Source: Candidatus Harpocratesius repetitus (GTDB lineage Archaea > Asgardarchaeota > Lokiarchaeia > Sigyniarchaeales > Promethearchaeaceae). From it: a DNA stretch of 32,000 nt. The stretch is taken from contig JAIZWK010000001.1 of NCBI GenBank assembly GCA_021498095.1, positions 2,010,001 to 2,042,000 of the forward strand, read 5' to 3'. Made by a program: the position numbers and the translations under genes. The notes beneath the pieces are model-generated. The model was not told the DNA's origin, did not search any database, and saw only the letters and a program-made list of their open reading frames with translations. Each line of letters starts with the position of its first letter. The stretch's first letter is position 1. Below, one piece after another: positions 18,186 through 21,602 of the stretch.

Positions 18186-19337
18186 TTAGATTCTGTTTTT
18201 ATATTTCCAAATTCCAAAAATAATTAAAGATACTGCAATAACACATCCTGCAACAATTCCAACGATTGCCCAAGGATTAGTTGATAATTGCCAAATCTCT
18301 TCATTCATCACAGCATTTTTGGAAGAACTGAAAGCATCAGAATCAAACGTTAAGATAACTTTCACTGCATAATACGATAATTTAGCAGATGAAATTGCAT
18401 CTGAACTATCTACATTTACATCGGCAAATCCATAATCAACTGGATTCTGTCGGGATAAAACCCAAGTAAATGTTTCATCATGTAATGGTTGATCCAAAAT
18501 GGTTAAAGTATTTACTGCATAATAAGTCAACATTAAAGAACTTTGCACAATACCTGATTGAATGCCATAACCTCCGTAATGTTTTCCAGCACTCTGATCT
18601 CCAAAGTAATAACTTTCAATATACGTTGTTATTCCATCAATCTGGCTCGAATTTAACTGGCTTAATAAATTCAATTCGTTTAATATTGCAACTGCATAAT
18701 AAGTATCAATTAACGATGCTTCTGCTCCTGGTGCGGATGCGAAAGCCAATTCTTCTGAATTCCAAGCACTTAAAACAAATGCTGCAATATCTGTCGGAGA
18801 AGTTTCATTAATTTTACCGAAGGATGTGAGTAATTTAACCGCAAAGAAGGTATCTGATAAGGTAGGCATTTTTGCACTTATACTCGCAAAGCCAGAATTG
18901 GTTTCATTTTGTAAATCGAATAGTTTTGTGGTTGCATCTTCAATTAATGTGGTGGTAAAATTAGTATCAACCAGTAATCCTGCAAAATATGCATAATAAA
19001 CTTGTGAAATAATTCCTACTCCTACATCTGAGAATTGTAAATAACGATCGCGTAAATAACTTCGAATAATACCTTGATCGTTTAGATTGTTTAATTCAGG
19101 ATCAATTTGCGATAAAATGAATAAATTTGCATAGGTGGTAAATTCTGAAAGGGTCGCTTCGTTATCCCCATTTCCGGAGGGTGAATCAAGAAATGCCCCT
19201 GAAGAATGCTGATTACTGAGGCAAAATTGTTCCAGTAATTCTTTCCGTGAAGTTGCTACAGCGTATTGTGCGGATAGAATCAGAGAGAACATAAATGTTA
19301 TTGATATTAATATCGTTAATTGGTGACGACGTTTCAT
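18186..19337 (-). CDS. Prenyltransferase/squalene-oxidase-repeat (alpha/alpha barrel) protein with signal peptide and C-terminal TM anchor
   Basis: Repeats Q-x(3-5)-G-[FY]-[AG]...[DT]-T-[FY]-[FY]-A-V (QNETNSGFA..DTFFAV; FASAPG..DTYYAV; GGYG..LTYYAV; QNPVDYGFA..LSYYAV). N-terminal MKRR plus hydrophobic signal; C-terminal TM followed by KYKNR. Confidence 0.8.
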   Translation of the reverse strand: MKRRHQLTILISITFMFSLILSAQYAVATSRKELLEQFCLSNQHSSGAFLDSPSGNGDNEATLSEFTTYANLFILSQIDPELNNLNDQGIIRSYLRDRYLQFSDVGVGIISQVYYAYFAGLLVDTNFTTTLIEDATTKLFDLQNETNSGFASISAKMPTLSDTFFAVKLLTSFGKINETSPTDIAAFVLSAWNSEELAFASAPGAEASLIDTYYAVAILNELNLLSQLNSSQIDGITTYIESYYFGDQSAGKHYGGYGIQSGIVQSSLMLTYYAVNTLTILDQPLHDETFTWVLSRQNPVDYGFADVNVDSSDAISSAKLSYYAVKVILTFDSDAFSSSKNAVMNEEIWQLSTNPWAIVGIVAGCVIAVSLIIFGIWKYKNRI

Positions 19338-19417: not shown

Positions 19418-19449
19418 TAAAATGAAGAAAAGAACCTCCTAATGGAGGT
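19418..19449 (-). terminator. Putative hairpin plus U-rich terminator downstream of the actin-related gene
   Basis: Perfect stem ACCTCC-TAAT-GGAGGT (19434-19449), followed on the minus strand by TCTTTTCTTCATTTT, ~10 nt after the stop codon. Confidence 0.45.
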
Positions 19450-19458
19450 GTGGAGGGG

Positions 19459-21117
19459 TTATTTTGTAAATACTTTGCTGAAATCAACGATACAAGAATT
19501 TGGATTTTCAGTAAAGGTTTGATAAGAAATCATGAATTTTCTGAATGAAGGAAGCGCTCCTAAAATTGCTGCTCCTCGATAAGCCGCGTAAATTCTACTT
19601 GGAGGAAGAATTACATTAACAATAAGTTCATCTTTATGTTTTTCTTCAAATTCTTCGTCTAATTGAATTATCTCTTCTAATTCTTCACTATCATATTCGG
19701 ATTCTATTGAACTTGTTATTTCTGCAAATTCGTTATTATCAACGTCTGTTTTTTTAAGTAATCGCTTTTCTTTTCGATCAATTTTTTCTTCAATAATAAT
19801 CGGATCTAATTTTTCACCACATTTATTACAGAAAGAAGATTCTCCATCTAATATTTTGCCACAATAAGGACATTTTGTAGGATAATGTTGCTTTGCAGCT
19901 CCTATTATATCAATTTGAGGAACTAAGGTTTGTTTAAGATCAGCGCCACAAAACGGACAGAACTCGCTTTCTTCGAAATTTACTATTTCTCCACATTTTG
20001 GACAATTCCCTTCCTTTAAAGAACTTTTACCATCGAGTTGAACCATTTTTTGCTTTTCTTCAAAAAGTGGTATATTTTCTTTTTCTTGTTTAGATTTAGA
20101 TTCATCTTTAGGTATTCGTGCTTTTAAGGTCTCTAAAGATGCTTTAATCTCTTGGATTAATCGTTCCTTAAACCCTGTGATTAATGAAGTTCCTCCAGTT
20201 AGGACTATATTTTGAAGAAGTGGTTTAATATAATGTGGATTTACTAGTAATAATGAGTTAATTACTGCCTGAGCAATACTTTCTGTCTGAGGAGTAATTA
20301 GTTCAGGATGAAATAAGACTTCTGCTGCATTGATAATAATATTTTCATATATATGAAGTGTTTCTCCATCTGGAAGCATGTAATCTACTGCATTGACCGG
20401 ATCTTGAGATGCGCTTATTGGATCAAGACTGATTCGTAAACACTTCTCTTTAATATCTTTAAGTATTTCTCGTTTTTGAAAAATTCCATATTGTGTAAGT
20501 AATTGATTAAGGTATTCTTCAATATCAGATCCTGCAATATTTAATCTACGAATACTTGGTGAATATAATTGAGCATCCATAACTGGTGTGATTGAAGAAA
20601 TTCCTGTGCCGATCTCAACAGATAACCCTGTAGTAAGTCCGATTGAGAATACGGCTGTTGTTGCAGAGTCAATTATCGCAACTTTATTAAATCTATGTGT
20701 TTCAAATAAAAGACGGGCAAAATATTGTGCAATATCTGGAGGAGTTAGTGGTGGAACGATATACACAACATTATATTGAGAAGGATCTTCTATTCTAAGA
20801 ATATTATAGAATATATGATTTAAAATTGCATAATAGTGATCCCAATTTGTAACATTTCCACGGTGAATTGGGTAATCAAGTTTTAATACACCACGCATCC
20901 TGATGGTATCATCACCGACATAAATTTCTTGCGACTGAGTTCCTGCCATTTGGCGATATTTAGGTGTTCCAACAACAGTTGGAAAGACCGCTCTGGGTCT
21001 ATCTTCACCCACAAATCCAACCTTGGTGAACCCTTCTCCTATATCCATGATTATTGTGTATTCATTGTAACTCAATATATTACCACCGAAAGTTGATTTC
21101 TTCCCCTTTATTATCAT
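19459..21117 (-). CDS. Actin-related protein (Asgard ARP) with a double zinc-ribbon/acidic insertion
   Basis: DIGEGFTKVG (phosphate 1), PRAVFPTVVG, YPI..G.VTNWD, EIGTG (phosphate 2), LPDG, AEVLFHP, NIVLTGGTSL, PPSRIYAAYRGAAIL: colinear with eukaryotic actin. About 170 extra residues contain CPKC-CPFC and CPYC-CNKC. Confidence 0.93.
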   Translation of the reverse strand: MIIKGKKSTFGGNILSYNEYTIIMDIGEGFTKVGFVGEDRPRAVFPTVVGTPKYRQMAGTQSQEIYVGDDTIRMRGVLKLDYPIHRGNVTNWDHYYAILNHIFYNILRIEDPSQYNVVYIVPPLTPPDIAQYFARLLFETHRFNKVAIIDSATTAVFSIGLTTGLSVEIGTGISSITPVMDAQLYSPSIRRLNIAGSDIEEYLNQLLTQYGIFQKREILKDIKEKCLRISLDPISASQDPVNAVDYMLPDGETLHIYENIIINAAEVLFHPELITPQTESIAQAVINSLLLVNPHYIKPLLQNIVLTGGTSLITGFKERLIQEIKASLETLKARIPKDESKSKQEKENIPLFEEKQKMVQLDGKSSLKEGNCPKCGEIVNFEESEFCPFCGADLKQTLVPQIDIIGAAKQHYPTKCPYCGKILDGESSFCNKCGEKLDPIIIEEKIDRKEKRLLKKTDVDNNEFAEITSSIESEYDSEELEEIIQLDEEFEEKHKDELIVNVILPPSRIYAAYRGAAILGALPSFRKFMISYQTFTENPNSCIVDFSKVFTK

Positions 21118-21197: not shown

Positions 21198-21602
21198 TTA
21201 TTCAAATATTTTCTTTTTCGAGAATTCTTTCATCTTTTCTGATTCATGTATTAAAAAATTATCAACATCCTTAGAAATAATCTCATACAAATGTAGTAAA
21301 TATTTCCCCCATTCAGTTAATTCAACCATGCCTCCTCCTCCTGCCCCTCCTTTTTTCGTAATGACAACTTTTTTTCCTGTTTTTTTCGAGATTTTCCGTA
21401 ATTTATCCCATCCGTATTTATAAGAATAGTTTAAAGATTTTGTTGCTTGGGTGAGATTTTGTGTGCGCTTTAACTCAGAGAGTAATTTGATATCGCCCTT
21501 TCCTATAGTAAAATCTCCTTCACCTTGAATCCAAAATTTGAGGTGGAGAGAAAAGTTTCCAAGAGGAGATGAAAATTCCTTTTTTTTAATCTCACTTTCC
21601 AT
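21198..21602 (-). CDS. ModE-like winged-helix transcriptional regulator (N-terminal domain only)
   Basis: IGKGDIKLLSEL...QNLTQATKSLNYSYKYGWDKL...KKGGAGGGGMVELTEWG, typical of COG2005. No TOBE/molybdate-binding domain. Confidence 0.85.
   Translation of the reverse strand: MESEIKKKEFSSPLGNFSLHLKFWIQGEGDFTIGKGDIKLLSELKRTQNLTQATKSLNYSYKYGWDKLRKISKKTGKKVVITKKGGAGGGGMVELTEWGKYLLHLYEIISKDVDNFLIHESEKMKEFSKKKIFE

What the first reader, a model, noticed from the sequence alone, without database searches (positions are those of the whole stretch)
19621..20140. Actin-related protein with a ~170-aa double zinc-ribbon plus acidic insertion at the loop where Arp2/Arp3 carry inserts
Seen: between the ERLIQEIKASL helix and the VILPPSRIYAAYRG strand lie two C4 ribbons (CPKC..CPFC and CPYC..CNKC, 19819-20004) and a Glu/Asp-rich stretch. 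Established: this corresponds to the actin ~322-328 loop in subdomain 3, where Arp2 and Arp3 have short insertions; Asgard ARPs are known. Inference: this is a non-filament or adaptor ARP carrying an interaction module near the barbed-end face. I cannot tell whether this particular fusion has already been described.
Basis: partly seen in the sequence, partly recalled or inferred. Interest (0 to 1): 0.68.

Follow-up and report, generated by a model that had tools for sequence, protein, structure and literature searches.

The report
Lokiarchaeal actin relative with zinc ribbons
This is a real gene, kept across one order of Loki-type Asgard archaea, for an actin-like protein that lacks actin's ATP-splitting residue and carries two small zinc-binding modules inside a filament-contact loop; the fusion was listed in a 2020 genome table but never studied, and its surface pattern hints that it could cap the growing end of the archaeal actin filament.

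Summary
Confirmed. ORF 19459-21117 (-; probably 538 aa from TTG 21075) is an actin-fold protein in which about 170 aa (two C4 ribbons, a basic helix, an acidic tract) replace actin 321-324. It is not a chimera: orthologs occur in 78 of 80 other sampled genomes of this Lokiarchaeia order and in none of 225 other Asgard genomes searched; 173 of 181 orthologs keep all four CxxC pairs. [quoted passage not shown] I found no functional study. This scan already found the family in at least seven other genomes. Added here: Gln137 is lost family-wide while the phosphate loops stay; pointed-face contacts (D-loop Met44, Arg62) resemble Lokiactin, barbed-face contacts do not (0.57 vs 0.28, p about 0.01, position sets chosen after the fact); a second paralog keeps the barbed residues. 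Best guess (0.4): a hydrolysis-impaired barbed-end cap for Lokiactin, with tethered ribbons as adaptors. The long acidic tract is limited to one family. The Arp2/Arp3 parallel concerns position only, and I could not check it.

The parts
19459..21117 (-). ORF of the zinc-ribbon actin-related protein (552 aa from ATG 21117; probably 538 aa from TTG 21075)
   Evidence: 538-aa database forms P0124/P0125; orthologs start at the same place
20137..21057 (-). Actin core, N-terminal part (residues 21-327 = actin 7-320)
   Evidence: AlphaFold2 pLDDT mostly about 90; TM-score 0.88-0.91 by target to actins
20929..20964 (-). D-loop (residues 52-63), keeps Lys39/Tyr40/Met44 equivalents as in Lokiactin; followed by the conserved MRGVLK (Arg62 invariant)
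   Evidence: Met44 95-96%, Arg62 100% of 181 orthologs
20665..20667 (-). Ser151 at the position of catalytic Gln137 of actin; His161 is Ser175, Asp154 is Glu168, Ser14 is Glu28
   Evidence: Gln137 in 0 of 181 orthologs, in all 15 Lokiactins
20470..20481 (-). Site of a 4-residue deletion in subdomain 4 (actin 202-205), found in all 40 members of the close clade and not in the other 141
19627..20136 (-). The insert, residues 328-497, in place of actin 321-324
20005..20133 (-). Extended helix end and charged flexible linker (residues 329-371; pLDDT < 50 at 340-367)
19948..20004 (-). Zinc ribbon 1 (C372-x2-C-x11-C-x2-C390), kept in all 181 orthologs
   Evidence: zinc binding itself inferred
19819..19872 (-). 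Zinc ribbon 2 (C416-x2-C-x10-C-x2-C433), missing in 8 of 181 orthologs including Ca. L. ossiferum
19747..19776 (-). Basic helix (residues 448-457) ending in LKKT, a WH2-like word seen in 33 of 40 close-clade members and 8 of 141 others
   Evidence: WH2 function not shown, no WH2 or thymosin family hit
19627..19737 (-). Acidic tract (residues 461-497, 16 D/E, low-confidence helices)
19495..19626 (-). Actin core, C-terminal part (residues 498-541 = actin 325-368)
19462..19485 (-). Short amphipathic C-terminal extension (D-F-x-x-V-F type; 164 of 181 orthologs; median 21 residues after the Trp356 column against 18 in Lokiactins)
19434..19449 (-). Terminator-like hairpin with U-rich tail just after the stop
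   Evidence: z -2.7 for the 62-nt piece; three such sites in the region against 2.7 by chance
18186..19337 (-). Conserved downstream neighbour: alpha/alpha-toroid (PF00432) protein with hydrophobic N-terminus and C-terminal membrane-like segment
   Evidence: present in 78 of 81 loci, median gap 146 bp; synteny only, no functional link shown
21198..21602 (-). Conserved upstream neighbour: small helix-turn-helix protein (ModE-like from memory; weak HTH_1 hit E 0.04)
   Evidence: (70 of 81 loci)

Best explanation
An order-wide, mostly single-copy Lokiactin paralog that has become a regulator rather than a building block. It probably still binds nucleotide but hydrolyses it poorly. It keeps the pointed-end surfaces (D-loop, Arg62 region, LPDG hairpin) with which an incoming actin monomer docks on a filament's barbed end, while its own barbed surfaces are remodelled and carry a 120-220-aa insert. 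It would therefore add to the barbed end of a Lokiactin filament and stop or slow further growth on that strand, with the zinc ribbons on flexible linkers tying the capped end to partner proteins. Shown: architecture, distribution, residue pattern, transcription of the MK-D1 ortholog (published). Inferred: nucleotide binding, impaired hydrolysis, zinc binding, binding to Lokiactin, capping, any partner of the ribbons.
For: Phosphate-loop and adenine-pocket residues D11, G13, K18, G156, G158, G301, G302 are invariant and K213/E214 nearly so, while Q137 is never Gln, H161 is mostly W/T/S, D154 mostly E, H73 R. Identity to the Lokiactin consensus is 0.57 at 24 pointed-face positions and 0.28 at the barbed-face positions (whole core 0.37; permutation p 0.013); Lokiactins show no such skew (0.83/0.78). 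Named barbed-face residues change: R147 to L/E, E167 to N/D, Y/F169 to Q/K/R, D288 variable, R290 to W. The other Loki paralog (377 aa, 120 sequences) keeps Y143, Y/F169, H173, D286, D288, R290 and loses M44, R62, A204; paired contrast p 0.04, and 0.01 for the two proteins of this genome. The insert hangs from the barbed-face loop on low-confidence linkers. Zinc modules on charged or Pro-rich linkers recur on Loki actin regulators; the Loki2DGel one does not bind F-actin and is proposed to bind another cellular feature (PMC9433394). MK-D1 ortholog RPKM 229 against 501 for Lokiactin; in L. ossiferum Lokiactin is several-fold higher than the other homologues (PMC9834061), which fits a sub-stoichiometric role.
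Against: The face sets come from my knowledge of F-actin and were fixed after I had seen the first residue table, and the sequences are related, so the p-values are soft. The skew is weaker in this protein's own clade (0.49 vs 0.25, p 0.057; paired p 0.12), which has also deleted actin 202-205, part of the pointed face. Several 'pointed' positions (P38, G63, P243, D244) are kept in the 377-aa paralog too and may be structural. The whole C-terminal third of the core is more diverged from Lokiactin, not only the contact residues. The cleft residues are well conserved within the family (top-residue frequency 0.76), as a co-evolved self-interface would also be. From memory, Arp2/Arp3 have inserts in this loop and still template filaments. 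No known ARP caps barbed ends, to my knowledge. A transcript level of about half that of Lokiactin in MK-D1 is high for a pure end cap.
Confidence: 0.4

Rival explanations
1. A monomeric pseudo-ATPase scaffold that does not touch actin filaments, in the manner of the nuclear ARPs (Arp4-Arp9): the actin fold is a nucleotide-stabilised platform in a protein or nucleoprotein complex, and the ribbons plus basic and acidic tracts bind protein or nucleic acid.
For: Large insert, loss of Q137/H161; lateral filament contacts are poorly kept (0.21 identity to Lokiactin); Arp4 is among the next-best folds after actin (Z about 40); no gelsolin, profilin or other actin gene was recognised among the conserved neighbours, which are FolD, a DRG-like GTPase, a CBS protein, a metallo-beta-lactamase-fold protein and an HTH protein.
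Against: The D-loop stays Lokiactin-like in length and sequence (K-Y-x-x-V-M-x-D-V in most members) and Arg62 is invariant, which a filament-independent scaffold would not need; Z-scores of Arp3 and Arp4 are tied and below actin.
Confidence: 0.27
2. A second, slow-turnover filament or a Lokiactin co-polymer: the barbed face has co-evolved with the family's own pointed face, and the insert projects outward on its linkers so that the filament is decorated with zinc ribbons.
For: Pointed face conserved; barbed cleft conserved within the family (0.76); L346/L349/F352 and mostly D286 kept; linkers long and flexible; transcript level about half of Lokiactin's in MK-D1.
Against: Barbed subdomain-3 and lateral positions are the least conserved within the family (0.56, 0.54) and the D288/R290 partners of the kept R62/D244 are lost; L. 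ossiferum filaments were assigned to Lokiactin (PMC9834061).
Confidence: 0.21
3. An Arp2/Arp3-like nucleator subunit whose barbed face seeds new Lokiactin filaments, the insert playing the part of the Arp2/3 loop insert.
For: Same loop as the Arp2/Arp3 insert (from memory); two ARP paralogs co-occur in these genomes.
Against: The barbed face is the part that has diverged from Lokiactin; the 377-aa paralog, not this one, keeps the barbed-face residues; the fold is nearer actin than Arp3.
Confidence: 0.08
4. Assembly chimera or chance fusion of a zinc-ribbon gene into an actin gene.
For: Similar ribbons are common in the genome: 21 other ORFs hit the ribbon profile.
Against: Same insert at the same loop in 181 orthologs, two cultured strains and all four sampled families of the order; conserved synteny.
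Confidence: 0.01

Closest known systems
[quoted passage not shown] 2020, PMC7015854 Supplementary Table 9
   Same: Ortholog: 51% identity over 550 aa, same insert, both ribbons, same neighbours; transcribed, RPKM 229.
   Different: The table calls it a fusion and gives no position within the fold, no residue analysis and no function.
Ca. Lokiarchaeum ossiferum UYP44711.1, one of three non-Lokiactin homologues in Rodrigues-Oliveira et al. 2023 (PMC9834061, Fig. 5d,e)
   Same: Ortholog (52% identity), same locus order, assayed by RT-qPCR.
   Different: 499 aa, lacks ribbon 2; the main text has no mention of zinc.
Lokiactin and eukaryotic conventional actin (PF00022)
   Same: Fold (Z 44.8, rmsd 1.9 over 342 residues); phosphate loops; D-loop and Arg62 region; 35% identity to this genome's Lokiactin.
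   Different: No Q137, altered H161/D154/H73, remodelled barbed face, 170-aa insert, short C-terminal extension; separate clade (100/99).
Arp2 and Arp3 of the eukaryotic Arp2/3 complex
   Same: Actin paralogs with inserts; from memory both have a short insert in this loop; Arp3 has a C-terminal tail that fills the barbed-end groove (PMC4947185), a possible parallel to the short C-terminal extension here.
   Different: Insert is far longer and holds ribbons; barbed face diverged instead of kept; 23% identity to Arp3; no evidence of orthology.
Loki2DGel / MKD1-2DGel C-terminal zinc domain (Akil et al. 2022, PMC9433394)
   Same: A (CxxC)2 module on a charged or Pro-rich linker attached to an actin-system protein of Lokiarchaeia.
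   Different: C-terminal, single and on a gelsolin; described with an extended Tyr-bearing loop; homology to these ribbons was not tested.

Membership tests
Actin superfamily (PF00022) | Profile score above cut-off and four-subdomain actin fold | tested here: met
   246 bits against cut-off 27; TM-score by target 0.86-0.91 to actins; Z 44.8
Actin superfamily (PF00022) | Phosphate-1, phosphate-2 and adenosine motifs | tested here: met
   D11, G13, K18, G156, G158, G301, G302 invariant in 181 orthologs; nucleotide binding itself not measured
Lokiactin (conserved Asgard actin) | Falls in the Lokiactin clade | tested here: not met
   Own clade, 100/99; the genome's Lokiactin is a different gene at C1:377025-378179
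Lokiactin (conserved Asgard actin) | Catalytic Q137, D154, H161 and sensor H73 | tested here: not met
   S151, E168, S175, R86 here; 100% kept in 15 Lokiactins
Lokiactin (conserved Asgard actin) | Forms two-stranded filaments | not testable with these tools
   needs purified protein or localisation
Asgard ARP clade of DSAG12_03244 / UYP44711.1 | Orthology by tree, insert position and synteny | tested here: met
Double zinc ribbon (PF12773) | Two CxxC...CxxC knuckle pairs scoring above cut-off | tested here: met
   39.7 bits against 27.3; eight Cys in 173 of 181 orthologs
Double zinc ribbon (PF12773) | Binds two zinc ions | not testable with these tools
   inferred from pattern only
Arp2 / Arp3 | Orthology in a tree with Arp2 and Arp3 | not tested
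   no Arp2/Arp3 sequence was recovered
Arp2 / Arp3 | Closer in structure or sequence to Arp2/Arp3 than to actin | tested here: not met
   actin Z 44.8 and 34% identity; Arp3 (1k8k_A) Z 40.3, rmsd 4.0, 23%; Arp2 not listed, so untested for it
Arp2 / Arp3 | Actin-like barbed face able to template a filament | tested here: inconclusive
   barbed-face identity to Lokiactin 0.28 against 0.37 overall; sequence only
WH2 / beta-thymosin motif | Amphipathic helix followed by extended LKKT that binds actin | tested here: inconclusive
   LKKT-like word in 33 of 40 close members, 8 of 141 others; predicted inside a helix end; no family hit

The most novel reading that the evidence does not exclude
Lokiarchaeia of this order evolved, independently of eukaryotes, a pair of actin paralogs specialised for opposite filament ends: this zinc-ribbon ARP keeps the pointed face and caps or tethers barbed ends, and the 377-aa ARP keeps the barbed face and caps or seeds pointed ends. 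An actin-fold barbed-end cap would be the mirror image of Arp2/3 and Arp11, and has no described counterpart that I know of.
Probability: 0.25. Interest if true: 0.8.

Novelty: new variant of a known kind. Interest (0 to 1): 0.47.

Why it matters
What the non-Lokiactin actin homologues of Asgard archaea do is an open question; the papers I could read list them, place them in a tree and measure transcripts, but assign no function. Both cultured Lokiarchaeia carry this gene, L. ossiferum crawls using Lokiactin dynamics (PMC13716822), and the residue pattern gives a cheap, specific test: end-selective effects on seeded elongation, with D-loop and insert mutants, and a natural one-ribbon variant for comparison. 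If the capping model holds, archaea would regulate filament ends with repurposed actin paralogs, a parallel to how eukaryotic ARPs arose. Limits: the family was found in one order only, so it says little about the eukaryotic ancestor; the architecture has been on record since 2020; this gene is one more member.

Tried and rejected
No RNA holder listed for the gene. Reads come only from the probable source sample; run X2 covers the gene in pieces, and its holes prove nothing. Atlas search with the insert alone gave no usable hit; the whole protein found two Promethearchaeota Actin+DZR clusters. Literature: no paper holds 'Asgard', 'actin-related' and 'zinc ribbon' together; other searches gave nothing on this insert; most subscription papers are not searched. 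Liu 2013 and Muller 2005, on ARP inserts, were not held, and searches for the Arp2/Arp3 loop insert failed. A fourth, insert-less paralog with Trp at 290 grouped with the family under FastTree (0.997) but not under IQ-TREE LG+C20: relationship unresolved, not used. One-ribbon members do not form one clade in the best tree, but a single loss is not rejected (p-AU 0.215). Records titled Hodarchaeota, Odinarchaeota, Hermodarchaeota or Thorarchaeota: those I placed nest inside the Lokiarchaeia family and share its sequence type, and no genome outside the order had the ortholog, so I treat the titles as mislabels. The WH2 reading of LKKT was considered and left as a weak lead. An operon with the downstream toroid gene is not supported (gap median 146 bp, hairpin after the stop). 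Among the 150 best cluster representatives, ribbons in this loop were seen only in family members.

Full report
Observation. The finding lies in ORF 19459..21117 on the minus strand, 552 codons from the first ATG. The database form from this 4,361,485-base genome and from a Ca. Harpocratesius record is 538 aa, starting at TTG 21075, where the closest orthologs also start. Pfam gives Actin at 21-340 and a double zinc ribbon at 372-434. Aligned to yeast actin, residues 21-327 match 7-320 and 498-541 match 325-368, so 170 residues stand where actin has 321-324. The eight cysteines lie at window 19819-20004 as reported; a mixed basic segment (433-460) and an acidic tract (461-497, 16 D/E) follow. 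AlphaFold2 gives a confident actin core, ribbons at pLDDT 70-78, and linkers under 50. The model matches actins first; among representative chains the order is actin Z 44.8, a Leishmania doublet-microtubule chain 43.1, Arp4 40.4/40.2, Arp3 40.3, Arp8, crenactin and a dynactin chain about 35.

It is a conserved family. A homolog search returned more than a hundred full-length relatives with Actin plus ribbon domains, including Promethearchaeum syntrophicum and Ca. Lokiarchaeum ossiferum. In whole genomes, an ortholog (E below 1e-71, open frame about 420-570 aa) was found in 73 of 75 other genomes of the same order and in 5 of 5 from two further families, and not in the 225 other Asgard genomes searched, whose best match scored like Lokiactin (only four candidates per genome were scored and many genomes are incomplete). 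Of 181 distinct full-length orthologs, all have 122-217 residues at this loop, 173 have four CxxC pairs and 8 have two; the second ribbon is the one lost. The family is one clade (100/99), apart from Lokiactin and from the 377-aa paralog. The post-ribbon segment is long and acidic only in the clade around this protein (median 72 aa, 19 D/E, against 36 aa, 7 D/E). Gene order is stable: an alpha/alpha-toroid membrane-anchored protein follows in 78 of 81 loci, FolD in 73, and a small HTH gene precedes in 70. The gap to the toroid gene is about 146 bp and a terminator-like hairpin follows the stop here, so I read this as inherited order, not a shown operon. A chimera is excluded by the orthologs; one contig of the probable source run also spans the gene.

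Active site. Using a fungal actin copy as numbering reference (17 marker residues checked), D11, G13, K18, G156, G158, G301 and G302 are invariant and K213/E214 nearly so, but Q137 is S, T or A in every ortholog, D154 is mostly E, H161 is W, T, S or (in a third of the close clade) H, H73 is R, and S14 is Q or E in the close clade. All 15 Lokiactins keep Q137, D154, H161 and H73. From established actin chemistry, Q137 and H161 place the attacking water, so I infer nucleotide binding with weak or altered hydrolysis. This is not measured.

Filament faces. From my knowledge of F-actin, the D-loop, residues 61-64, 202-205 and 241-245 of one subunit dock on the cleft (143, 166-173, 346-352) and on 283-294 and 322-325 of the next; a monomer joining the barbed end uses the first set and then offers the second. 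The family matches the Lokiactin consensus at 0.57 of pointed-face positions and 0.28 of barbed-face positions (0.37 overall; permutation p 0.013), whereas Lokiactins show 0.83 and 0.78. Met44 (95-96%) and Arg62 (100%) stay; R147, E167, Y/F169, D288 and R290 change, the last mostly to Trp. The 377-aa paralog shows no overall skew (0.44, 0.43) but keeps Y143, Y/F169, H173, D286, D288 and R290 and loses M44, R62 and A204; the paired contrast gives p 0.04. Cautions: the sets were fixed after I saw the first table, relatives are not independent, the close clade alone gives p 0.057 and lacks actin 202-205, and the whole C-terminal third of the core is more diverged. A short amphipathic C-terminal extension is kept in 164 of 181; Arp3's tail fills the barbed groove (PMC4947185), but I could not inspect coordinates to see whether this one does.

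Mechanism. Most likely (0.4) the protein docks on the barbed end of a Lokiactin filament and presents a face that cannot be extended, with the ribbons as tethered adaptors. Rivals are a filament-independent scaffold like the nuclear ARPs (0.27), a self-polymer or co-polymer decorated with ribbons (0.21) and an Arp2/3-like nucleator (0.08). Zinc modules on linkers are common in this genome (21 other ORFs hit the ribbon profile) and occur on Loki gelsolins, where the Loki2DGel module did not bind F-actin and was proposed to bind another cellular feature (PMC9433394). An LKKT word in the basic helix of the close clade recalls WH2 motifs, but it is clade-limited and has no family hit.

What is known. 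The L. ossiferum ortholog is UYP44711.1, one of three homologues that Rodrigues-Oliveira et al. 2023 placed with other ARPs and found several-fold less transcribed than Lokiactin. I found no paper on the insert or on function, within a library that lacks most subscription papers. The claim that Arp2 and Arp3 have inserts in this loop agrees with my memory but could not be verified. The scan has reported this family from at least seven other genomes.

Verdict. Real and conserved; catalogued in one table line but uncharacterised; a distinct variant of the Asgard ARPs, found in one order. Interest 0.47: a specialist would know that Lokiarchaeia have extra ARPs, but the pseudo-ATPase signature and the one-sided filament surface make their role testable in two cultured strains. 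The most novel reading, a pair of end-specific actin paralogs, has probability about 0.25.

Noticed in passing
L082:3196-4329 (+) = G000 C1:2259695-2260828: The genome's 377-aa ARP (ortholog of MK-D1 DSAG12_02858 by length; 120 relatives) also lacks Q137 (D/G) and has H161 as invariant Arg; it keeps barbed-face residues and loses M44, R62, A204, the pattern expected of a pointed-end cap or seed.
   Followed up: partly
L119, L120, L122-L124: A fourth, very divergent actin paralog (381-400 aa) in the other large family of the order; no insert, but Trp at the R290 position as in the zinc-ribbon family; tree position unstable.
   Followed up: partly
L106, L107, L108: Recent extra Lokiactin copies in some genomes with intact catalytic residues but changed D-loop and Arg62.
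   Followed up: no
window 18186-19337 (-): Orphan alpha/alpha-toroid (PF00432) protein with a signal-like N-terminus and a C-terminal membrane segment, kept next to the ARP in 78 of 81 loci; a candidate conserved Lokiarchaeia surface protein.
   Followed up: partly
window 21198-21602 (-): Stand-alone HTH protein resembling the ModE DNA-binding domain (from memory); in most genomes of the other family a CBS-domain gene lies between it and the ARP.
   Followed up: partly
   Followed up: no
window 19434-19449 (-): Bacterial-style hairpin plus U-rich tail directly after the ARP stop; not checked in other genomes.
   Followed up: partly
G000 genome-wide: 105 ORFs carry a CxxC-x(8-16)-CxxC pattern and 21 besides this one hit the insert's ribbon profile: a widely reused module.
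   Followed up: no
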